The notes beneath the pieces are model-generated. The model saw only the letters and a list, made by a program, of their open reading frames with translations. It searched no databases and had not been told where the DNA came from. Made by a program: the position numbers and the translations under genes. Of a DNA stretch of 64,000 nucleotides, positions 2,614 to 31,244 are shown one piece after another (the first letter of the stretch is position 1; every line of letters begins with the position of its first letter). This DNA comes from Alphaproteobacteria bacterium. Lineage in GTDB: Bacteria > Pseudomonadota > Alphaproteobacteria > UBA828. The stretch is from assembly GCA_965237415.1 (NCBI GenBank), contig CBDEFM010000002.1, positions 1,984,001 to 2,048,000 of the forward strand, written 5' to 3'.

Positions 2614-2885
2614 TGCGGGACCTGCTGAATGGTGGAGACGCGCCCAGGCCGCTCCGGGACGGGCGTTGCGGCGGATAATAGGAGCGGCCGTGTACGCCGG
2701 GCAACACGCAACCTGTCATTTGGTTTGTGACCACGTAGCCCGTCGCCGTTTGCCTGCCAACTCGGTGCGACTGGCCCACGGTCGCGGGCCGTGATAGAGC
2801 ATGGCGGCCCGCCCGTAGCGCGTACCCGCGCGTAAGGGCCGGGACATGACCGCCCACAACCCACACCTGCTCCCATGGCGCCTAA

Positions 2886-3148
2886 CCCGCATTTCTCACC
2901 ACGGTCACGGCCTGCGTCGCGCCCAGGCGTTCGGTCCGCTAGGAGCGGGCCGAAAAGCGTATCGGTGCATACGGTTGAGGCCCGCGACGAAGCGGGCGGG
3001 CGCCTGGGCGCGACCCGAAGGGCGGCGCTGTCCGGCCGACAGTGTGCGTCACGCCGCTTGCCCGATGCACCACATCGCGCTGTGCGCCGTTCCTACCCTG
3101 TCGACCGGACAGCGCCGCGCAGACCATGACCGTGGTGAGAAATGCGGG
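2886..3148. mobile_element. 263-bp MITE with terminal inverted repeats and a CTAA target duplication
   Basis: Ends cccgcatttctcaccacggtca / tgaccgtggtgagaaatgcggg form a perfect 22-bp IR, extending to about 31 bp with 2 mismatches; CTAA at 2882-2885 and 3149-3152. Confidence 0.85.
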
Positions 3149-3924
3149 CTAAGTTCCCTCCCCGCCGGCCGCTCCTGGTCGCAAACTGGAAGATGAACGG
3201 CTTGCATGGCGATGGGCTAGCCCGCGCTAGCGCGCTGGCGGACCACGCGGCTGCCGGCGATTGCGGAGGCGACATCGTCGTGTGTCCGCCGGTGACGCTT
3301 CTCTTCGCGCTCCGGGCCGTGTTCGCCGGCACGCAGATCGCGCTCGGCGGGCAGGACTGCCACGTCTCGGCGGAGGGCGCACACACCGGCGACGTGAGCG
3401 CTCTGATGCTCGCCGATGCCGGCTGCGCCTACGTCATCGTCGGCCATTCCGAACGCCGCGCGAGCCACGGTGAGAATAACGAATGGGTCGCGGGCAAGGC
3501 CGCCGCGGCCCATGCGGCGGGGCTCACCGCCATCGTCTGCGTCGGCGAAAGCGCGGCCGACCGGGATGCCGGGCGCGCACTCGCCGCGATCGGCCGCCAG
3601 ATCGAGGGATCGCTGCCAGCAACTGCCACGCCCGACAACACCGCGATCGCCTACGAGCCGGTCTGGGCCATCGGTAGCGGCCGCACACCGGGCCCGGCCG
3701 ATATCGAGGCAGCGCACGCGAAAGTGCGGGCCGGGTGGGACCAGAGATTTTCGGGAAGCGGCGCGGCGCTCCGCGTGCTATATGGCGGCTCCGTCACGGC
3801 GCGTAACGCAGGCGACATCCTGGCCGCGCCGGGGGTTGACGGCGTGCTGGTCGGCGGAGCCAGCCTCTCTGCGGACGCGTTCTGGCAGATTTGCCAAGCG
3901 TGCCGCCGAGCCCGTCCAGGCTAG
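3142..3924 (+). CDS. tpiA: Triosephosphate isomerase; present ATG lies within the MITE right end
   Basis: NWKMN, GHSERR, AYEPVWAIG, YGGSV and LVGGASL motifs. Confidence 0.97.
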   Translation: MRAKFPPRRPLLVANWKMNGLHGDGLARASALADHAAAGDCGGDIVVCPPVTLLFALRAVFAGTQIALGGQDCHVSAEGAHTGDVSALMLADAGCAYVIVGHSERRASHGENNEWVAGKAAAAHAAGLTAIVCVGESAADRDAGRALAAIGRQIEGSLPATATPDNTAIAYEPVWAIGSGRTPGPADIEAAHAKVRAGWDQRFSGSGAALRVLYGGSVTARNAGDILAAPGVDGVLVGGASLSADAFWQICQACRRARPG

Positions 3925-7869: not shown

Positions 7870-7942
7870 CTCTTCCCTCCCGATTCGCCGGACCATGGTG
7901 CGCTGCCCGGCGCAGGGTGTCGGTGTCAGCATCGCACCGTGC
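7870..7942. repeat. Dispersed repeat; inverted homologue at about 25523-25600
   Basis: cccgattc(g/t)ccggaccatggtgcg(c/a)tgc...tcag(c/g)atcgc(a/g)cc(g/a)tgc shared between the two loci. Confidence 0.6.
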
Positions 7943-8175: not shown

Positions 8176-8725
8176 GGTACAGACCGGATAGATAGGTAAC
8201 AGAATGGACCGGATAGATGGGTGACAGGTTATGGCAGGGCCAGGAGGTGGCCGATGCCGTGGAAGGAGACCTGTCGCATGGAGGAGAAGTTGGTTTTTGT
8301 CGCAGACTGTCTGCGTGGCGAGTTGCCGATGACAGCGCTTTGCGAGGACTACGGCATCAGCCGCAAGACGGGCTACAAATGGCTCGGTCGCTATCGCGAG
8401 CACGGCCCGGAGGGCCTGGTGGAGCGCTCTCGTGCGCCGCACCGTCATGGTCGGTCGATGGCGCCGGAGATGGCCGAAGCGATTGTTGCTCTGCGCAGGC
8501 AGCGTCCCCATTGGGGTCCGCGCAAGCTGCGCGCAGTGCTGATGGGAGAGCGCCCCGAGGCGGTGTGGCCTGCGGCCAGCACGATGGGCGATCTGCTGCG
8601 TGCGGAAGGGCTGGTGAGCGACGGCGAACACTGTTACCCATGTAACCGGTCCATAGCGTTACCGAACACTGTTACCCATGTATGCTTCCGGTTGCACAGG
8701 CGGTACCCATGCTTCCGGTTGCACA
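8176..8725 (+). mobile_element. Internally deleted IS481-family element (transposase N-terminus only)
   Basis: ORF from 8254 MPWKETCRMEEKLVFV...GISRKTGYKWL...HWGPRKL lacks the integrase core; left end has repeated gaccggatagat(a/g)ggt(a/g)acag, right end repeated tgttacccatg...ccggttgcaca. Confidence 0.8.
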
Positions 8726-8754: not shown

Positions 8755-8861
8755 ACACGACCTCATATGCCGCGCGCGAGACGTTTCGGGCTCACGCGAC
8801 TCGGGCGTGCGCGACATCCCACTTATCCCACTTAATCCCACTTAATCCCGGCTAAGAAATG
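8755..8861. repeat. Gene-less mini-copy of the DUF3486 module ends (hairpin plus AATCCCACTT tandem repeats)
   Basis: 8769-8800 matches the reverse complement of 30209-30240 (28/32); 8817-8854 matches the reverse complement of about 29509-29547 with 2 mismatches. Confidence 0.8.
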
Positions 8862-25522: not shown

Positions 25523-25630
25523 CTCTGCATGGCGCGATCCTGATGCAGAAGCCGCGCATCCTGCATCGCACCATGGTCCGGAGAATCGGGCGGGGGGAGA
25601 GGCCCAGGCCCTAATGAGAATTTCGGGCCT
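25523..25630. repeat. Dispersed repeat/MITE remnant (homologue of 7870-7942) with a gcccgaaattctca-type end
   Basis: Reverse complement reads gcccgaaattctcattaggg...cccgattctccggaccatggtgcgatgc. Confidence 0.55.
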
Positions 25631-25656: not shown

Positions 25657-28600
25657 TTACTCCGCAGCGCTGACCTGCGGCGCGGGTGCACGGAAGGCGG
25701 CGAGGAGCTCGGCCTCGCGCTCCTTCGCGCAGGCGATGTTGGCCTCCTTCACATGGCCGAAGCCGCGCATGGCGAGCGGCACCTCGGCGATCTCCACGGC
25801 GAGCGCATGGTTGTCCGAATCGAGGCCGGCGATCAGCGCCTCCACCGTGGCCTCGTACTCGCCGATCAGCGCGCGCTCCCGCCGCCGCTCGGCGGTGTAG
25901 CCGAAGGGGTCGAGCGGAGTCCCGCGCAGGCCCTTGAATGCCGCGAGCAACCGAAAGGCCGTGAGCATCCAGGGGCCGAAGAGGCGCTTCTTCAGGTGGC
26001 CGGTCGCCGGGTCGCGCCCGGCGATGAGCGGCGGCGCCATGCTGAAGCGGAGGCCGACCGCTCCCTCGAACTGCGCCTCCACCTGGGCCCGGAAGCGGCC
26101 GTCGGTATAGAGCCGGGCGACCTCGTATTCGTCCTTGTAGGCGAGCAGCTTGTGATAGGCGCGGGCGACCGCCTCGCCGAACCCCTTGCGGCCCGGCGCC
26201 CGCGCCCGCTCGGCCTCGCGCGCGCGGCCCACCAGCGCGCGGTAGCGGGCGGCGTAGGCCGTGTCCTGATAGGCCCTGAGGTCGGAAGCGCGGCGCTCGA
26301 TCAGCGCGTCGAGTCCCTCTGGCCGAGGAGGCTGGGGCACGGTACCCGTCTCGGCCGCCGCTGCGGCAACGGCCTCAGGATCGTTCGCGGCAGCGCGGCC
26401 CCAGCGGAAGGCACGCAGGTTGGCCTCGACGGCGACGCCGTTGAGCGCGATCGCCCGCTCCAGGGCCTCGGCGCCCAGCGGGATCTGGCCGCGCTGGTAG
26501 GCGAAGCCCAAGAGGAAGAGGTTGGCGTAGACGGCATCGCCGATCAGTGCCGTCGCCATGCGGGTCGCGTCGACGACGTCGAGCGCGCGTGCCGCCGCTC
26601 CGACCACCCGCTCCAGCTGATCGGCGGGGAAGTCGAGGTCGGGCGCGCGGGTGAAATCGCCAGTCGTGATCGGGCCGCCGTTGACCACGGCGTGGGAGGT
26701 GCTGCGGTCGAGCCGGGCCACCGCCTCGCGGCTCGCCGCCACAACCAGGTCGACGCCCAGCAGCAGCCTGGCGCCGCCTGTGGCGATCCGCACCGCATGG
26801 AGATCCTCTGCCCGCTCGGCAATACGGATGTGGCTGGTGACGGCGCCGTACTTCTGGGCGAGGCCCGCCTTGTCGAGGACCGTGGCCCCCTTGCCCTCGA
26901 GCCGTGCCGCCGTACCCAGCAGCGCGCCGAGGGTGACGATCCCGGTGCCCCCGACTCCTGCAAGCAGGATGCCGTAGGGCTCGGCGCAGGAGGGGCGAGC
27001 GGGCTCCGGCAGCGCGGCGATCGGCTGCTCGGAGACGCCGGACGATGCGCCAGAGCGCCTGCGCCCCCCCTTGACCAGCACGAAGCTCGGGCAGAAACCC
27101 TTGATGCAGGAAAAATCCTTGTTGCAGGCGGATTGGTCGATCGCTCGCTTGCGGCCGAACTCGGTCTCCAGCGGCACGACCGAGAGGCAGTTCGACTGCA
27201 CGCCGCAATCGCCGCAGCCCTCGCACACGTCCGGGTTGATGATGACGCGCCAGTCGGGGTCCTCCAGCAGGCCGCGCTTGCGCCTGCGCCGCTTCTCGGT
27301 CGCGCACATCTGGTCGTAGACGATGGCCGAGACCCCCTCCCACTCGCGCAGCTCGCGCTGCACCTGGTCGAGCGCGTCCCGGTGATGGATCGTCACGCCG
27401 TCGGCGAACTGCCCGTCGAAGGGGTATTTCTCGGGCTGGTCGGTGACCACGGCGATGCGGCCGACGCCTTCCGCCTGAATCTGGCGGGTCACGCGCTGGA
27501 CCGAGAGCGGCCCGTCCATCGGCTGGCCGCCGGTCATCGCCACGGCGTCGTTGTAGAGAATCTTGTAGGTCATGTTGACGTCGGCGGAGACCGCAGCCCG
27601 GATCGCCAGAATGCCGGAGTGAAAATAAGTGCCGTCGCCGATGTTCTGGAAGACGTGCGGGGTCTCGGTGAAGGGCGCCTGCCCGATCCAGCTCGCGCCC
27701 TCGCCCCCCATGTGGGTGAAGGTCGCGGTCTCCCGGTCCATCCACTGCGCCATGTAGTGGCAGCCGATGCCGGCGAGCGCGCGGCTCCCCTCCGGCACCT
27801 TCGTCGAGCTGTTGTGGGGGCAGCCCGAGCAGAAGTAGGGCACGCGCTCCATCGCCGCAGGCTCGGCGGCTTCGCTCTCCGCCCACCGGGCCCGCAGAAG
27901 GGCTACACGAGCCTCGATGCGCTCGTCCGTACCGAAGCGCTGGAGGCGGGCGGCCAGCGTCTGCGCAACCCCGCCGGGGTCGAGTTCGCCCGAGGCGCGG
28001 AGCAGCGGCCGTCCCTCCTCGTCGCACTTGCCGATGACGCGGGGGCGCGCGCTCGCGGGCAGGTTGTAGAGCAGCTCCTTGATCTGGTTCTCGATGAAGC
28101 CGCGCTTCTCCTCGACGACGAGAATCTCGTCGAGCCCGCCGGCGAAGCGCCTGATGCCGTCGGGCTCCAGCGGCCAGCTCATGCCGACCTTGTAGAGGGC
28201 GAGGCCTAAGCGCCGTGCCGTCCCCTCGTCGATATCGAGGTCGTCGAGCGCCTGGCGCACGTCGAGGTAGGACTTGCCGGTGGTCACGATGCCGAGCCGG
28301 CGCCCCGGCCCGTCGATCACGGTGCGGTCGAGCCTGTTCGCCCGGCCGTAGGCGCGCGCGGCGTCGAGCTTGTATTCGAGAAGGCGCTCCTCCTGATCGA
28401 GCGGCGTGTCGGGCAGGCGGATGTTGAGCCCGCCGGCGGGCAGCACGTGGTCTTCCGGCCTGACGATGGCGACGCGGTGCGGGTCCACCGAGACGATGGC
28501 CGAGCTGTCCACCGTCTCGGCGATGCAGATGAAGCCGACCCAGAGGCCGGCGTAGCGCGAGAGCCCCCAGCCGTGGAGCCCATAGTCCAGAAACTCCTGG

Positions 28601-29127
28601 ACGCCCGCCGGGTTGATCACCGGCATGGCCGCGCTCATGAAGTCGAACTCGCTCTGATGCGCCGTCGTCGACGAGGCGCAGACGTGGTCGTCGCCGGCCA
28701 GCGCGAGTACGCCGCCGTGGGGCGCCGTGCCGGCGTTGTTGGCATGCTTGAAGACGTCCATCGTGCGGTCGACACCCGGCCCCTTGCCGTACCAGATGGC
28801 GAAGACGCCGTCGTGCTTGGCACCGGGGAAGAGCCCCACCTGCTGCGTGCCCCAGAGCGCGGTGGCTGCCGTGTCCTCGTTGACGCCGGGTTGGAAGTGC
28901 ACGCCGTGCTTCTCCAGGAACGGCCGCGCCTGCCAGAGCGCCCGGTCGAAATTGCCGAGCGGCGAGCCCCGGTAGCCCGAGATCATGCAGGCCGTCTCGA
29001 GCCCGGCCGCCTGGTCCCGCAAGTACTGGATCATCGGCAGCCTGACCAGCGCCTGGGTGCCGGTCATGTAGACGTCCCCCGACGGGGCGGCGTACTTGTC
29101 GTCGAGAGTGACCGCGGCGAGCGTCAT
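25657..29127 (-). CDS. Indolepyruvate:ferredoxin oxidoreductase-family protein (fused alpha/beta)
   Basis: SGYRGSPLG, PYFCSGCPHN, GDGTYFHSG, CEGCGDC, GVGGTG, AYKDEYEVARL; RBS aggag. Confidence 0.95.
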   Translation of the reverse strand: MTLAAVTLDDKYAAPSGDVYMTGTQALVRLPMIQYLRDQAAGLETACMISGYRGSPLGNFDRALWQARPFLEKHGVHFQPGVNEDTAATALWGTQQVGLFPGAKHDGVFAIWYGKGPGVDRTMDVFKHANNAGTAPHGGVLALAGDDHVCASSTTAHQSEFDFMSAAMPVINPAGVQEFLDYGLHGWGLSRYAGLWVGFICIAETVDSSAIVSVDPHRVAIVRPEDHVLPAGGLNIRLPDTPLDQEERLLEYKLDAARAYGRANRLDRTVIDGPGRRLGIVTTGKSYLDVRQALDDLDIDEGTARRLGLALYKVGMSWPLEPDGIRRFAGGLDEILVVEEKRGFIENQIKELLYNLPASARPRVIGKCDEEGRPLLRASGELDPGGVAQTLAARLQRFGTDERIEARVALLRARWAESEAAEPAAMERVPYFCSGCPHNSSTKVPEGSRALAGIGCHYMAQWMDRETATFTHMGGEGASWIGQAPFTETPHVFQNIGDGTYFHSGILAIRAAVSADVNMTYKILYNDAVAMTGGQPMDGPLSVQRVTRQIQAEGVGRIAVVTDQPEKYPFDGQFADGVTIHHRDALDQVQRELREWEGVSAIVYDQMCATEKRRRRKRGLLEDPDWRVIINPDVCEGCGDCGVQSNCLSVVPLETEFGRKRAIDQSACNKDFSCIKGFCPSFVLVKGGRRRSGASSGVSEQPIAALPEPARPSCAEPYGILLAGVGGTGIVTLGALLGTAARLEGKGATVLDKAGLAQKYGAVTSHIRIAERAEDLHAVRIATGGARLLLGVDLVVAASREAVARLDRSTSHAVVNGGPITTGDFTRAPDLDFPADQLERVVGAAARALDVVDATRMATALIGDAVYANLFLLGFAYQRGQIPLGAEALERAIALNGVAVEANLRAFRWGRAAANDPEAVAAAAAETGTVPQPPRPEGLDALIERRASDLRAYQDTAYAARYRALVGRAREAERARAPGRKGFGEAVARAYHKLLAYKDEYEVARLYTDGRFRAQVEAQFEGAVGLRFSMAPPLIAGRDPATGHLKKRLFGPWMLTAFRLLAAFKGLRGTPLDPFGYTAERRRERALIGEYEATVEALIAGLDSDNHALAVEIAEVPLAMRGFGHVKEANIACAKEREAELLAAFRAPAPQVSAAE

Positions 29128-29208
29128 CGCTACTCCTGTCCTCAGCGTCCGGCTCTTCTTGGAGCGAGGCCGCAAGCGGCCGCCGCCCGGTGCGCGGCCG
29201 CAGCGCCA

Positions 29209-30159
29209 TCATACCCCATGGTGCCGTCCCGGCGCGAAGGGGCGGCGTGCGATGGGACGTGCCAAGCGATTTTCTGCGAGATTTGCCAGGATCGGGCCGC
29301 AGAAGGCGTGACGCGCCGGCGCCACCTGCGTCCCCTCTCCGCCGCGCGCGGCAACCGACGATGCGTCGACCATAAGGAGGGCCGGACCGCAGGTCCGGAG
29401 CGCGCGACCGCGCGCCGCGCCGAATGGCGCGTAGGCAAGCGAGCGGAGCGAGCGCCCGCCGTTGAGGGATTTGAAAGAAGACACGCCCGACACATTTTCT
29501 GGGCGGGATTCGCCGGGATTAAGTGGGATTAACTGGGATAAGTGGGAGTCCGCAGGATTCCACGGGTCGACCGGGGCCGATGCGACGGCGCGCGCAGGCC
29601 GACGGGGCCTCCCCTCGACGACCTCGCGGATGGCGGCGACGGCCTCGGGCGAGAGGCCCTTCCTGACCGGCGCCTGGCCCGCGCCGGGCGCGGCCCTGGC
29701 CGCCTTCGCCGCCGCCCGCTCCCGCTCGAGGCGGAGCTTGTCGGTGCCTTCGATGCGCCTGAGGACCAGCGCCAGGCGGGCGAGCTCTTCCGTCGACACG
29801 GGCTCCTCGCGACGGCTGAGATCGGCCAGGGCGGAGAGCGTCAGCGTCCGCAGGGTCTCGATCAGGATGAGCCCCGCGCTGCCCTCGGTGCGCTCGCCGA
29901 GCGCACGCACCCACGCCTCGTTGGCGCGGTCGGCCTCCTGCTGCTGGCGGATCAGGTCGCGCACGTTCTTGACGTAGCGGCCGACGGCCGAGCGCGAGCA
30001 CGCGCCGCCCTCCGCCCGGATGCGGGCCGTGATTTCGTCGATGGTGGCGCCGTCTGCGATGGCCGCATCGACGGCCTCACGCAGGGTGGGCGGCAGCCGC
30101 GCGATCAAGGAGCGCCCGAACGTCGCGGCTGTCGTAGTCTGTCGGGTTTCGTTTTGCAT
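29209..30159 (-). CDS. Phage Mu gp27-like (DUF3486) protein with a repeat-derived C-terminal extension
   Basis: RSLIARLPPTLREAVDAAIADGATIDEI...SRSAVGRY...GLSPEAVAAIRE resembles DUF3486; the tail runs through tandem and REP-like repeats. Confidence 0.75.
   Translation of the reverse strand: MQNETRQTTTAATFGRSLIARLPPTLREAVDAAIADGATIDEITARIRAEGGACSRSAVGRYVKNVRDLIRQQQEADRANEAWVRALGERTEGSAGLILIETLRTLTLSALADLSRREEPVSTEELARLALVLRRIEGTDKLRLERERAAAKAARAAPGAGQAPVRKGLSPEAVAAIREVVEGRPRRPARAVASAPVDPWNPADSHLSQLIPLNPGESRPENVSGVSSFKSLNGGRSLRSLAYAPFGAARGRALRTCGPALLMVDASSVAARGGEGTQVAPARHAFCGPILANLAENRLARPIARRPFAPGRHHGV
29379..29476. repeat. REP/MITE-like module homologous to 8046-8138
   Basis: gcgcgac...cgaatg...caagcgagcggagcgagcgcccg...tgagggat shared. 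Confidence 0.7.
29502..29547 (-). repeat. Tandem 9-10-bp repeats (A)ATCCCAC/GTT
   Basis: Reverse complement: tcccacttatcccagttaatcccacttaatcccggcgaatcccgcc. Confidence 0.85.
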
Positions 30160-30364
30160 GAGGCGATGCTGGCGCGCCGAGCCCCCGCCCTCCACCGCAC
30201 CATGGTGCGTCGCGCGAGCCTGAAAGGTCTCGCGCGCGACAGATAGGGTTGTGAGTGTAGCCGACGGAGCGTCGCATGAATCGGCAATGGAAAGTCGGAT
30301 GAAACCCTGGAATATCGGCTGGAAATCCGGGCCGGGCTCGCGGTCGAATTGGCCTGGAAATTTA

Positions 30365-30460
30365 GGCCGCACTTCTCACCAAGGTCATGGCCTGCGTCGC
30401 GCGGGACGCGCGCGGAGCGCACGATGCGTCCAGGCGTTCGATCCGCCAGGAGCGGGCCGA
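30365..30460 (+). mobile_element. Partial copy of the tpiA-MITE family (one end)
   Basis: ttag-gccgcacttctcaccaaggtcatggcctgcgtcgcgc...ccaggcgttcgatccgccaggagcgggccga matches 2886-2953. Confidence 0.75.
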
Positions 30461-30599
30461 GAACTTGAATCACGTCGTCTGTCATATGACCCTCACCCAC
30501 ACCAGCCCGCTCAAGAGCGATAACCGGCGTCCGGTCTCCAGGAAATTGGCGCGACCGTCGAACGCGAGCCGCGGGCGGTATTCAGCCAGCACCTCCAGC

Positions 30600-31244
30600 C
30601 GCACCGCCTGAGCGGCGGATGCATGGCGTGCTCGCGCATCAGGCGCTTGATCTTCTTGTGGTTGACGATCCAGCCCCGATGCCTGCACGCCGCCTGCATG
30701 CGTCTCCAGCCGTAGGCTTCGAACTCGTCCTTGATCGCGTGCTTGGCCTCGACCAGGGCGGTGTCGTCGACCGATGCCCTTGGTTCGTCGTAGTAGGTGG
30801 AGCGTGCGATCCCCATCAGCCGGCATCCTTGGGCGATGGAGAGGCCTCTGGGCCGGTGATGACGGACATGGGCGCGCTTCTCGGCCGTGTCGTCCTTGCT
30901 GCAGCGCCCCCCTTAGGAACTCGAGCTCGAGGGCCTGCTTGCCCACCAGGCGTTCGAGGGCCGCGATCCGGGCCTCGTACTCCTGGATCGTGCTGGCCGC
31001 CTCGGCGTCCTCGTCGAAGGCGCCGGCCTCGTACTTCTCCACCCAGATCCGATGGGGTGCGGGAGAGCTCGTGGCGGCGTGCCAGGCTGTGGAGGGTCTC
31101 GCCGGCGAGATACTCCTGAACGACCTGGCGCTTGAAGGCGATGCTGTGGGTGCGGTGCTTTGCCATGGGCGTCGATCCCTCGAATGCCCGACGCACCGGT
31201 CAAATCATTTCAATCCGCCTGTCCGACCCAAGGGGCCCACTCCA
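30600..31244 (-). mobile_element. Degenerate IS3-family element (frameshifted orfA, truncated orfB)
   Basis: End TGGAGTGGGCCCC at 31244; orfA MAKHRTHSIAFKRQVV with LERLVGKQALELEFL in another frame; orfB MGIARSTYY..YGWRR..VNHKKIKRLMRE stops before the DDE core. Confidence 0.85.

What the first reader, a model, noticed from the sequence alone, without database searches (positions are those of the whole stretch)
29209..30262. Orphan Mu gp27/DUF3486-like gene framed by a hairpin and AATCCCACTT repeats: candidate new mobile or domesticated module
Seen: an intact DUF3486-like ORF with no terminase, portal, capsid or Mu transposase gene in the window; an upstream imperfect hairpin gtcgcgcgagcctgaaaggtctcgcgcgcgac (30209-30240); an array of 4-5 (A)ATCCC-core units just after the domain, read in frame as SHLSQLIPLNPGES; and a gene-less copy of both motifs at 8755-8861. 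Known: Mu gp27 lies just upstream of the large terminase and is thought to be a small-terminase-like DNA-binding protein. Inference: the protein may bind its own flanking repeats, acting as a one-gene packaging parasite (redirecting a Mu-like helper or GTA terminase to pac-like sites), a dominant-negative anti-phage decoy, or a domesticated DNA-binding factor. The family call is by eye.
Basis: partly seen in the sequence, partly recalled or inferred. Interest (0 to 1): 0.8.

Follow-up and report, generated by a model that had tools for sequence, protein, structure and literature searches.

The report
Dispersed small-terminase and repeat-array cassettes
The supposedly orphan phage gene is one of about ten copies of a small-terminase-like gene, each followed by a matching array of 10-base repeats, scattered round the chromosome of one bacterial genus that also keeps conserved phage head and DNA-packaging genes, so it looks like part of a built-in system for loading DNA into phage-like heads.

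Summary
The ORF is Mu gp27/DUF3486 (PF11985, E 4e-23). The genome has 10 PF11985 genes. Each has the same palindromic "L" motif upstream and an (A)ATCCC array downstream. About 54 gene-less L-stub-array miniatures also exist. The hairpin is a generic REP-like repeat.

The family is confined to one genus: 17 of 20 other genomes, 1-14 copies each. Array units differ between protein clades: ATCCC, GGGCC, TGTGCC, TCTC. Empty sites exist in relatives.

In this genome the L motif also precedes a solitary Mu-type portal gene and a protease-scaffold-capsid operon. An L-like motif precedes an intact large terminase. These genes are conserved across the genus, with the capsid protein 92-98% identical. 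No tail gene was found with three families.

A fold model places the protein's conserved C-terminal motif on the resident terminase: score 0.62, best control 0.00.

Best reading (0.5): terminase-small-subunit plus pac-like-site cassettes of a dispersed, GTA-like or satellite-like Mu-type packaging system. DNA binding and packaging are inferred, not shown.

The parts
30209..30240 (-). REP-like hairpin, one member of a genome-wide dispersed hairpin family. It is not specific to this gene.
   Evidence: Fold -15.1 kcal/mol, z -3.98. A strict pattern finds 67 hairpins of this kind in the genome. Variable numbers occur upstream of L and inside the gene-less copies.
30191..30208 (-). L motif GCACCATGGTGCGGTGGA, with the palindromic core ACCATGGT. 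It is the conserved upstream element shared by all DUF3486 cassettes and by the portal and head-operon genes, and in L-like form by the terminase gene.
   Evidence: 101 hits with up to 3 mismatches in the genome. 101 of 106 array hits have an L motif within 2.5 kb upstream. It precedes the portal gene in G000 and in 4 of 4 other solitary portal loci checked. It precedes the head operon in G000 and in 5 of 6 other loci. Across the genus there are 12-79 copies in 18 genomes, against 0-2 in the three genomes that lack the system.
30157..30190 (-). Conserved leader ending in ..CAGCATCGCCTCATG, including the probable start codon at 30157-30159.
   Evidence: The same GATCGCGCCATGCAG-type leader follows L in both gene-bearing and gene-less copies. 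A similar CGCGCCATGAA leader follows L at the head operon.
29503..30159 (-). Conserved coding part of the small-terminase-like gene (219 codons, type A). The PF11985 domain maps to about 29611-30105.
   Evidence: The alignment of 24 homologues has 17 invariant columns. The AF2 model has pLDDT about 88-94 over residues 21-70 followed by long helices. dN/dS among A copies is 0.18-0.70.
29501..29560 (-). Array of six 9/10-bp units with an (A/C)TCC(C/T) core (GAATCCTGCG ... AATCCCGCCC). It overlaps the 3' end of the ORF and is the proposed cognate binding (pac-like) site.
   Evidence: The same array follows all A and B paralogues. Other protein clades carry other unit types.
29491..29500 (-). A-rich run (AGAAAATGTG) that closes the array.
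   Evidence: An AT-rich run (AAATTAA, ATAAAA, AAAAAAA) follows the arrays of every type.
29209..29502 (-). Non-conserved read-through tail of the ORF. It includes the unrelated dispersed repeat 'X' at about 29343-29478.
   Evidence: The tails differ in all four A copies. The X repeat has 23 hits in the genome and blastn matches at other loci.
30363..30463 (-). Copy of an unrelated, more abundant miniature repeat ending in ..GGTGAGAAGTGCGGCCTAA (the 'R' end). It lies just upstream of the cassette.
   Evidence: Blastn finds about 40 matches. The R end has 245 hits, and a 269-bp family carries it inverted at both ends.
7890..7907 (+). L motif of the gene-less copy. It is separated from its array by nested insertions (X repeat, IS481 fragment).
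   Evidence: and for the IS481 domains.
8770..8852 (+). Gene-less copy: hairpin remnant at 8770-8800 plus array ATCCCACTTATCCCACTTAATCCCACTTAATCCCGGC at 8816-8852.
25562..25579 (-). A third L motif in the window, with a leader stub but no array, just downstream of the ior gene.
   Evidence: C2:2009562, minus strand.

Best explanation
The gene is one of about ten paralogous small-terminase-like (Mu gp27/DUF3486) genes. Each sits in a 0.75-1.3 kb cassette with three parts: a conserved palindromic L motif and leader, the gene, and an array of 9/10-bp units whose sequence is typical of the protein's clade.

Shown here. (1) The cassettes and about 54 gene-less L-stub-array miniatures are scattered in intergenic DNA. 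(2) They are confined to one genus. (3) They are polymorphic between species. (4) In that genus the L motif also precedes a solitary Mu-type portal gene and a protease-scaffold-major-capsid operon. An L-like motif precedes an intact large-terminase gene in G000 and in one other genome. (5) These head and packaging genes are conserved across the genus. (6) No tail gene was found with the three families tried.

Inferred. L is the common promoter/operator of this dispersed phage-derived regulon. When it fires, the small-terminase-like protein oligomerises on its cognate array, whose 10-bp phasing puts all sites on one face of the helix. Through its conserved C-terminal GLSPEAVAAIRxxVEG motif it recruits the resident large terminase and portal/procapsid. 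Headful packaging of chromosomal DNA then starts at many cassette and miniature sites.

The system would therefore behave like a gene transfer agent, or like a capsid-forming satellite that borrows tails. The cassettes would be its packaging-initiation modules, multiplied and diversified into several specificities.
For: Family and copy number. PF11985 and phrog_426 matches. 10 PF11985 matches in G000. tblastn finds 4 type-A and about 7 type-B copies, each with the array downstream in the same orientation.

Coupling of L and array. 101 of 106 array hits have an L motif upstream, at 106-423 bp (gene-less), 662-684 bp (type A) or about 1166-1244 bp (type B).

Taxonomic range. 17 of 20 other genomes of the genus carry PF11985. 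Elsewhere in the order it occurs in 1 of 28 genomes, spread over 13 other genera.

Array type follows protein clade. In a tree of 61 proteins, clade I (13 rows) has GRGCC, TGTGCC or TCTC arrays and no ATCCC array. Clade II (48 rows) has 37 ATCCC arrays. The labels need 12 changes against a shuffled mean of 22.2, matched by 0 of 200 shuffles (sequences). TTGGGCCAC arrays occur in 8 of 21 genomes, and every one of those 8 yielded a clade-I protein.

Shared L motif on head and packaging genes. Portal: G000 plus 4 of 4 other solitary loci, and 0 of 2 prophage portals. Head operon: phrog_976 protease, phrog_673, phrog_1005 major head protein, in G000 plus 5 of 6 other loci. Terminase: an L-like motif upstream in G000 and G021.

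Conservation. The capsid gene is found in 17 of 21 genomes. In the 16 others its best copy is 92-98% identical. Portal is in 19 of 21 and Terminase_6C in 18 of 21. The G000 terminase has an open 454-codon frame and a phrog_2 match.

Co-occurrence. The three genomes without PF11985 (G025, G028, G012) also lack the capsid gene, have 0-2 L motifs and have no intact portal gene.

Predicted binding to the resident terminase. Score 0.62 with best control 0.00. That mark was reached by 58 of 80 solved complexes and 2 of 110 mismatched pairs. The runs agree in at least 78% of contacts, and the partner pLDDT is at least 62. The interface uses protein residues 166-184 and terminase residues 8-107.

Selection. 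dN/dS is 0.18-0.70. About 116 of the 120 PF11985 matches listed across the order have no internal stop.

Canonical context. In a Mu-like phage the homologue lies directly upstream of the terminase and DUF935 portal genes.
Against: No DNA binding, packaging or particle has been shown. Gene and array are physically linked, so clade-specific arrays could reflect co-inheritance rather than recognition.

Type B proteins are only about 50% identical to type A. They have a diverged helix-turn-helix and C-terminal motif and weaker PF11985 scores (23-41 bits), yet they sit next to the same ATCCC arrays.

No tail, Mu F or TerL_ATPase family hit was found in G000, so a complete particle is not accounted for.

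Foldseek found no significant structural match. A small terminase (G20C) ranked only 31st, at E 7.

The complex prediction can pass through family likeness alone. Only 1 of 3 other terminase upstream regions fetched showed an L-like motif.

G022 has 32 L motifs, a portal gene and a terminase gene, but no capsid match.

How the cassettes reach new sites is unknown. No terminal inverted repeats or clear target duplication were found for the L...array unit.

The gene-less copies are mostly unique in their internal layout: 40 singletons among 46 clusters of 54 elements. There is therefore no sign of a recent burst.
Confidence: 0.5

Rival explanations
1. A selfish, non-autonomous repeat family (MITE-like or mosaic). 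Its full-length members happen to carry a phage-derived DNA-binding gene that binds the element's subterminal array. The gene's role is in the element's own maintenance, transposition or regulation, not in packaging by the resident head genes.
For: There are dozens of gene-less derivatives that keep both ends. Insertion polymorphism exists, with precise empty sites between convergent genes. The cassettes sit in a mosaic with REP-like hairpins and with an abundant miniature repeat whose R end is a terminal inverted repeat. Copies lie at synteny breakpoints, and cassettes are swapped at one site between species. Copy number ranges from 0 to 14 among species.
Against: The protein has no catalytic domain: only PF11985 matched. 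No transposase is linked to it, since the flanks of 35 loci share no gene other than DUF3486. No inverted repeats or clear target duplication exist for the L...array unit. This reading does not explain why L also heads conserved portal and capsid genes, and in L-like form the terminase gene. Nor does it explain the predicted docking on the terminase.
Confidence: 0.2
2. A minimal satellite or anti-phage decoy aimed at infecting Mu-like phages. The cassette protein captures the invader's large terminase and diverts packaging to chromosomal arrays. This either spreads host DNA in the phage's particles or aborts phage production.
For: Genuine Mu-like prophages with contiguous gp27-terminase-portal genes exist in the genus, for example in G002, G006, G010 and G024. 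G000 itself has no detectable tail genes. Diversified protein/array specificities are what an arms race would give.
Against: The prophage gp27 genes are too distant to hit types A, B or C by tblastn at 1e-5 (9 loci without a hit), and 0 of 10 carry the L motif. The cassette protein is predicted to fit the conserved resident terminase. No test against a prophage terminase was possible. The resident head genes are conserved, which argues for a self-contained system.
Confidence: 0.15
3. A domesticated DNA-binding factor (regulator, nucleoid-associated or centromere-like protein) whose binding arrays have been spread round the chromosome. It would have no role in packaging.
For: The fold is a helix-turn-helix followed by long helices. 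The weak best fold hits include proteins that bind direct-repeat arrays (ArdK, StbA) and sigma region 4. Arrays lie upstream of the same housekeeping gene (ior) in many species, in different types.
Against: Three complete genomes of the genus lack the family altogether. Copies include pseudogenes, and dN/dS is up to 0.70. Arrays show no strand or position bias by eye (list). Many arrays abut gene 3' ends. The fold hits are not significant.
Confidence: 0.1
4. An ordinary decaying prophage remnant with chance repeats.
For: The gene is phage-derived. IS3 and IS481 fragments lie nearby.
Against: There are ten paralogues and a genus-wide family with intact frames. All copies share L and array architecture. 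Even distant members are flanked by housekeeping genes. Selection is below neutrality. The repeats exceed chance.
Confidence: 0.03

Closest known systems
Small terminase (TerS) with its pac/cos recognition repeats in pac-type and cos-type tailed phages. The examples lambda gpNu1/cosB R sites, SPP1 G1P/pacL-pacR and P22 gp3/pac are recalled, not tested here.
   Same: Homology to Mu gp27 and phrog_426 'terminase small subunit'. An N-terminal helix-turn-helix followed by long helices. Repeated short sites next to the gene. A predicted C-terminal contact with the N-terminal part of a large terminase.
   Different: The gene is not next to a terminase gene, unlike the canonical order seen. It is present in about 10 diverged copies per genome, with about 54 extra site-only copies, all in host intergenic DNA. 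It has its own conserved upstream motif.
Gene transfer agents (RcGTA type; knowledge recalled)
   Same: Phage-derived head and packaging genes are conserved across a whole lineage, split over several loci and apparently co-regulated.
   Different: The head genes are Mu-type, not HK97/RcGTA-type. No tail genes were detected with three families. The small-terminase gene is multicopy and has sequence-specific-looking arrays, whereas RcGTA packaging is described as essentially random (recalled).
Phage satellites that carry their own TerS or capsid genes (SaPI/PICI, cf-PICI, PLE). Only search listings and abstract openings were seen.
   Same: A TerS homologue with its own packaging site redirects a terminase. 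cf-PICIs encode head and packaging proteins but no tails.
   Different: There is no contiguous island, no integrase or att site was identified, and the genes are dispersed over at least 3 loci and conserved genus-wide. The cassette is a single gene of under 1 kb.
Mosaic intergenic repeats and MITEs (BOX, RIME/BIME, Correia elements; recalled)
   Same: Modular short repeats with variable numbers of hairpin modules. They are intergenic, often at convergent gene ends, polymorphic between relatives, and lie at rearrangement breakpoints.
   Different: Some members contain an intact, selected protein-coding gene. The ends are a promoter-like palindrome and a phased direct-repeat array, not inverted repeats.
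Centromere-like or regulator proteins that bind arrays of direct repeats (StbA/stbDR and ArdK of plasmid R388; ParR/parC recalled)
   Same: A helix-turn-helix protein encoded beside an array of roughly 10-bp direct repeats. StbA and ArdK appear among the weak fold hits.
   Different: The fold hits are not significant (E above 1). The arrays are scattered over a chromosome rather than sitting at one plasmid locus. The sequence family is a phage terminase subunit.

Membership tests
Pfam PF11985 Phage_Mu_Gp27 (DUF3486) | Full-length profile match above the gathering score. | tested here: met
   83 bits against a cut-off of 28, profile positions 1-171 of 173. Type C scores 69.7 bits. Type B scores 26.8 bits, just under the cut-off.
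Small terminase subunit (TerS) | N-terminal helix-turn-helix DNA-binding domain followed by an oligomerisation helix or helices. | tested here: inconclusive
   The AF2 model has helices at 24-35, 40-49, 56-88, 93-115 and 123-156, with pLDDT about 88-94 over residues 21-70. Foldseek found no hit at E of 0.001 or better. Sigma region 4 HTH domains were the best hits and G20C TerS ranked 31st. The PDB sequence profile search found nothing relevant.
Small terminase subunit (TerS) | Gene lies immediately upstream of the large terminase gene. | tested here: not met
   Housekeeping and IS-fragment ORFs flank it. The only Terminase_6C hit is about 790 kb away. The feature is met in phage YPCBV-1 and, judged from sequence read by eye, in several of the genus's prophage-type loci.
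Small terminase subunit (TerS) | Binds the large terminase through its C-terminal region. | tested here: met
   In silico only. Score 0.62 with best control 0.00. The mark was reached by 58 of 80 solved and 2 of 110 mismatched pairs. Contact agreement is at least 78% and partner pLDDT at least 62. The interface residues are 166-184. The model supports binding but does not show it.
Small terminase subunit (TerS) | Sequence-specific recognition of a pac/cos site and initiation of packaging. | not testable with these tools
   Only indirect evidence exists: array type follows protein clade.
MITE | Short, non-coding, many dispersed copies. | tested here: met
   54 gene-less L...array units with 83-391 bp between L and the array.
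MITE | Terminal inverted repeats. | tested here: not met
   The ends are L (palindrome) and a direct-repeat array. Only about 7 clusters have an inverted R module on the left. The R end belongs to a separate 245-hit repeat family.
MITE | Target-site duplication. | tested here: inconclusive
   The empty site GGGTTAG compared with the filled site shows GGGTT on both sides, but that sequence overlaps the conserved R end.
MITE | Presence/absence polymorphism at orthologous sites. | tested here: met
   The A1 site is empty in G002. The short element at C2:1079243 is absent in G007, G027 and G002, and the alignments indicate it is present in at least 8 genomes, one of which (G026) was read. The ior site is empty in G002.
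Gene transfer agent | Phage structural genes conserved and vertically kept across a lineage. | tested here: met
   Capsid gene in 17 of 21 genomes at 92-98% identity, portal in 19 of 21, terminase in 18 of 21.
Gene transfer agent | Complete head-plus-tail gene set. | tested here: not met
   No Phage_sheath_1, Baseplate_J, PhageMin_Tail or Phage_Mu_F hit in G000. Only these families were tried, and the genome is 96% complete.
Gene transfer agent | Particles carry host DNA. | not testable with these tools
   No particle data were available.
PICI / cf-PICI satellite | One contiguous excisable island. | tested here: not met
   The head operon is at C2:24.6 kb, terminase and portal are at C2:1.227-1.231 Mb, and the cassettes are at 10 other loci. 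Integrase and att sites were not searched for.
REP/BIME-type hairpin repeats (for the hairpin only) | Dispersed imperfect palindromes in intergenic DNA. | tested here: met
   67 strict-pattern hits and a stable fold. An associated RAYT transposase was not searched for.

The most novel reading that the evidence does not exclude
The genus runs a domesticated, tail-less Mu-type capsid and packaging machine. Its small-terminase gene has been multiplied and diversified into several protein/array specificities, and dozens of site-only copies are sown between genes. The result would be a chromosome-wide network of packaging start sites under one palindromic control motif. That amounts to a gene transfer agent (or tail-borrowing satellite system) with distributed, sequence-addressed initiation, instead of random or single-site packaging.
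Probability: 0.3. Interest if true: 0.9.

Novelty: new variant of a known kind. Interest (0 to 1): 0.75.

Why it matters
If the arrays are packaging start sites served by cognate small-terminase paralogues, this would be the first case in which a cell's chromosome is seeded with many dedicated pac-like sites for a resident phage-derived head.

It would bear on three things. First, how gene transfer agents and lateral or generalised transduction choose DNA. Second, how terminase specificity evolves, because several natural protein/site pairs are available for swapping. Third, how miniature repeats can spread a functional protein-binding site.

Even if the function is different, the family is a rare example of a MITE-like repeat whose long form carries an intact, selected phage gene.

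My searches found no description of it: DUF3486; gp27 / small terminase / pac; small terminase with miniature inverted-repeat; satellite / TerS; GTA / Mu-like; multiple pac sites. I saw only listings and the openings of abstracts.

Tried and rejected
Simple prophage decay: rejected (see rivals).

My own early reading that the G000 large terminase is only a C-terminal fragment was wrong. The frame is open for 454 codons from an ATG with a typical LLPYQ N-terminus, and it matches phrog_2 over residues 98-523 of the 551-codon piece tested.

Fold comparison. Foldseek against the PDB gave nothing at E of 0.001 or better. The wider VIA library was not on the machine. The PDB profile search gave only a designed helical protein at E 0.5.

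Rfam. No family matched window 29200-30600 at E of 1 or better.

Autonomous partner for the R-end repeats. Pairs of inverted R ends are 71-454 bp apart. Four pairs are 2.1-3.6 kb apart and were not examined further. No obvious IS was seen.

Recent amplification of the gene-less copies is not supported. End-to-end clustering of 54 internal regions gave 46 clusters, 40 of them singletons.

Conserved neighbour genes. The flanks of 35 related loci share only the DUF3486 gene. One set of 5 loci is a single orthologous site.

G003. A DUF3486 remnant lies near that genome's terminase gene, but it has no array and no L motif.

Sequencing runs. Only Logan contigs were available. RNA-library contigs from 3 runs of 2 studies overlap parts of the gene (29895-30057, 30024-30184, 29622-29746) at low depth. 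This does not show transcription. One RNA-library contig and one DNA contig join 29552 to 30209, skipping 656 bases. They have only 19-25 letters on the shorter side and most likely come from gene-less copies elsewhere, so I do not read this as excision. Stretches without cover and small-share runs are not interpreted. No habitat is claimed.

Motif readings by eye against recalled consensus sequences. I considered the DnaA box, the CtrA TTAA-N7-TTAA site, the sigma-54 -24/-12 promoter and a dif/Xer site for L or the array. I dropped each because spacing or bases do not fit. These consensus sequences are recalled, not tested. GANTC sites flank the array (seen). Reading them as CcrM methylation sites is from recall, and I did not follow it up.

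Supplementary files of papers were not consulted.
Full report
1. What is at the coordinates.

The minus-strand ORF at window 29209-30372 matches Pfam PF11985 (Phage_Mu_Gp27/DUF3486) over the whole profile, at E 4.2e-23. It also matches phrog_426, annotated as terminase small subunit, at E 8.7e-26.

The likely start is the ATG at 30159. The first 219 codons (29503-30159) are conserved among relatives. The rest of the open frame runs into an unrelated dispersed repeat and differs in every paralogue.

The hairpin at 30209-30240 is real (z -3.98). The array at 29501-29560 has six 9/10-bp units with an (A/C)TCC(C/T) core and closes with an A-rich run. The unit is enriched in the window: 5 hits against 1.22 expected, with 0 of 100 shuffles as high. 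The gene-less copy at 8770-8852 aligns to both flanks of the gene.

It lies between the hairpin and the start codon. I call it L.

2. It is not an orphan.

The window is C2:1984001-2048000 of a 4.75-Mb, 67% G+C genome in two contigs.

The array string CCCACTTAATCCCGGC, with up to 2 mismatches, occurs 64 times. L occurs 101 times with up to 3 mismatches. Of 106 array hits, 101 have an L motif upstream on the same strand. The distances fall in three classes: 106-423 bp, 662-684 bp, and about 1166-1244 bp.

The two longer classes contain DUF3486 genes. Type A has four copies, 71-91% identical to the window protein. Type B has about seven copies, about 50% identical, two of them partial. A profile search finds 10 PF11985 matches in the genome.

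The short class has 54 units. They keep L, the leader, the first few tens of bases of the gene, a variable number of hairpins, and the array.

In 39 of 106 array hits, a third module follows 74-180 bp after the array (most often 81-82 bp). This "R" module..GACCGTGGCGAGAAATGCGGGCTA, is the terminal repeat of a separate and more abundant miniature-repeat superfamily: 245 hits, including a 269-bp family with R inverted at both ends. The hairpin belongs to yet another dispersed family, with at least 67 hits. The locus is therefore a mosaic of repeats. Only the L-gene-array unit is specific to this finding.

3. Distribution and dynamics.

Related genes with in-frame arrays occur several times per genome in Alphaproteobacteria / Rhodospirillales / Defluviicoccus-labelled MAGs (35 loci).

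Among 49 genomes of the order, PF11985 is found in G000, in 17 of 20 other genomes of the same genus (1-14 matches each), and in 1 of 28 genomes of 13 other genera. The flanks of the 35 loci share no gene other than DUF3486. Even the most distant members sit between housekeeping genes.

Insertion polymorphism is clear at three sites.

- The site of paralogue A1 is empty in G002. There, two convergent genes are about 12 bp apart. G000 has 1135 bp at that site, made of an X repeat, the cassette and another miniature repeat.
- The short unit at C2:1079243-1079464 is absent in G007, G027 and G002. Their empty site, GGGTTAG, is the overlapping stop codons of two convergent genes. The alignments indicate that the unit is present in at least eight other genomes, one of which (G026) was read.
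- The site upstream of the ior gene, which is the window locus, varies by species. It holds a type-A gene in G000, G004 and G008; gene-less units with a different array in G001, G006 and G011; gene-bearing units of yet another type in two further genomes; a lone L in G005; and nothing in G002.

Copies also lie at inversion breakpoints between G000 and its closest relative G004. One G000 gene copy corresponds to two gene-less copies there. Chimeric A/B genes exist.

I found no inverted terminal repeats and no unambiguous target duplication for the L...array unit. The gene-less copies are mostly unique in their internal layout. Movement is therefore shown by polymorphism, but the mechanism is unknown. 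Recombination between copies clearly contributes.

4. The protein.

dN/dS among the four A copies and two G004 orthologues is 0.18-0.70. One G004 orthologue has a premature stop.

The alignment of 24 homologues shows a strongly conserved N-terminal segment (GRSSIxRLPxxLREAVDxAIADGATIDEIT...CSRSAVGRY) and a conserved C-terminal motif (GLSPEAVAxIRxxVEG).

The AlphaFold2 model has mean pLDDT 70, with about 88-94 over residues 21-70. It is a small helical DNA-binding-type domain followed by long helices. Foldseek gives no significant PDB match. The weak top hits are sigma region 4, ArdK and StbA, and a small terminase ranks 31st.

In a Mu-like phage record, the homologue lies directly upstream of the genes for a 518-residue protein and the DUF935 portal. 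This matches the canonical gp27 - terminase - portal order.

5. Arrays differ with protein clade.

A second array type, units CTTGGGCCAC, occurs in 8 of 21 genomes of the genus and not in G000. In 3 of 12 such loci fetched, a DUF3486 gene 48-52% identical to type A sits between an L motif and the array. Its stop codon lies in the first unit. Further types were read: CTTGAGCCAC, TTGTGCCGGG/TTGTCCCGGG, CTTATCTCGG/TTTGTCTCRC and AGTTTGTGCC.

In a maximum-likelihood tree of 61 proteins, a 100/100-supported split separates two clades. Clade I has 13 rows with GRGCC, TGTGCC or TCTC arrays and none with ATCCC. Clade II has 48 rows, 37 of them with ATCCC. A sub-clade of two has TGTGCC-type arrays by eye. 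The labels need 12 changes against a shuffled mean of 22.2.

All types share the same L motif and the closing AT-rich run.

Caveat: gene and array are linked, so this pattern is expected from co-inheritance as well as from recognition. Also, type B shares arrays with type A despite about 50% identity.

6. The L motif links the cassettes to conserved head and packaging genes.

The genome's only Portal_Mu gene (C2:1229842-1230816) is preceded by hairpins and L. So are 4 of 4 solitary portal genes checked in other genomes, but 0 of 2 prophage portals.

Upstream of the portal gene lies a large-terminase gene with an open 454-codon frame, and an RTX-repeat gene sits between the two. An L-like motif precedes this terminase gene in G000 and G021. 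It was not seen in 2 other upstream regions fetched.

Two further L copies (C2:24626 and C2:1133165) precede a head maturation protease gene (phrog_976). At the first of these the protease gene is followed by a scaffold/decoration gene (phrog_673) and a major head protein gene (phrog_1005). The second is a 1.8-kb, 99.9% identical partial duplicate. L is found upstream of this operon in 5 of 6 other genomes checked.

The capsid gene is present in 17 of 21 genomes of the genus. In the 16 others its best copy is 92-98% identical, and it is single-copy in 13 of them. Portal is in 19 of 21 and Terminase_6C in 18 of 21.

L occurs 12-79 times in 18 genomes. It occurs 0, 1 and 2 times in G025, G028 and G012. 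These are the three genomes that also lack PF11985, the capsid gene and an intact portal gene.

Genuine Mu-like prophages in the genus have contiguous gp27-terminase-portal genes. They lack the L motif in all 10 prophage-type loci checked, show no arrays by eye, and their gp27 is too distant to hit types A, B or C.

In G000 no Phage_sheath_1, Baseplate_J, PhageMin_Tail, Phage_Mu_F or TerL_ATPase family hit was found.

7. Predicted contact with the resident terminase.

I folded the window protein (with its alignment) together with the G000 large terminase. The score was 0.62, with a best control of 0.00. That mark was reached by 58 of 80 solved complexes and 2 of 110 mismatched pairs. The runs agree in at least 78% of contacts, and the partner pLDDT is at least 62. 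The interface uses protein residues 166-184, which is the conserved C-terminal motif, and terminase residues 8-107.

This supports binding but does not show it. It could also reflect general TerS-TerL likeness.

8. Reading.

Shown: the anatomy, copy numbers, genus-restricted distribution, polymorphism, clade-specific arrays, the sharing of L with conserved head and packaging genes, and their co-occurrence.

Inferred: L is a common promoter/operator. The protein binds its array. It recruits the resident terminase, so that packaging starts at cassette and miniature sites. On this reading the system is GTA-like, or a tail-borrowing satellite-like system.

The rivals cannot be excluded with these tools. 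They are: a purely selfish repeat with a DNA-binding passenger gene; a decoy or satellite aimed at Mu-like phages; and a domesticated regulator.

Literature searches (only listings and abstract openings were seen) turned up no description of dispersed small-terminase/array cassettes. Evidence from RNA libraries is too weak to use.

Noticed in passing
G000 C2:24626-27323 (outside the window; locus L130 627-3327): An L motif followed by genes for a head maturation protease, a scaffold/decoration protein and a major head protein. The capsid protein is 92-98% identical in 16 of 20 other genomes of the genus, which points to a domesticated Mu-type head module.
   Followed up: partly
G000 C2:1226498-1230969 (locus L044 4499-8970): An intact large-terminase gene (454 codons) and a Mu-type portal gene (442 codons). 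They are separated by an inserted RTX-repeat gene, hairpins and an L motif. In G009 and G021 the terminase gene's 3' end and the portal gene are separated only by the L region.
   Followed up: partly
G000 C2:1745943-1746101 (locus L045 15944-16102): A 159-bp miniature element with GGCTTATCCCCTTG...CAAGGGGATAAGCC inverted ends. It is absent from the orthologous G004 site, where the flanking alignments overlap by 8 bp (a likely 8-bp target duplication). A 100% identical copy lies elsewhere in G004.
   Followed up: no
window 30363-30463 and genome-wide: A superfamily of miniature repeats shares the end ..GACCGTGGYGAGAAATGCGGGCTA. It has 245 hits, including a 269-bp family with the end inverted on both sides. 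The ends often overlap the stop codons of flanking convergent genes (TA-containing targets). No autonomous partner was seen.
   Followed up: partly
window 8221-8620 and 30482-31196: A truncated IS481-family transposase N-terminus (HTH_32, LZ_Tnp_IS481), and frameshifted IS3-like OrfA/OrfB remnants next to the cassette.
   Followed up: partly
window 29343-29478; also beside paralogues A1 and A4: Another dispersed repeat ('X', ..TCCCTCAACGGCGGGCGCTCGCTCCGCTCGCTTGCCTACGCGCC..) with 23 hits. It lies next to several cassettes on either side.
   Followed up: no
locus L023 (record OZ253557.1), about 2860-3520: A chimeric gene with a type-B N-terminus, an internal deletion and a type-A C-terminus. It shows recombination between cassette types.
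   Followed up: no
locus L114 (G009:C6:509100-510600): The array has expanded into four tandem copies of a 30-bp super-unit (CCGATCCCGG CGAATCCCAC TTTGTCCCGC).
   Followed up: no
window 25657-29175 and orthologous loci: The intergenic site upstream of the indolepyruvate-ferredoxin-oxidoreductase-like gene holds a cassette or miniature of a different type in most species examined. It is either a recurrent landing site or a very old occupied site.
   Followed up: partly
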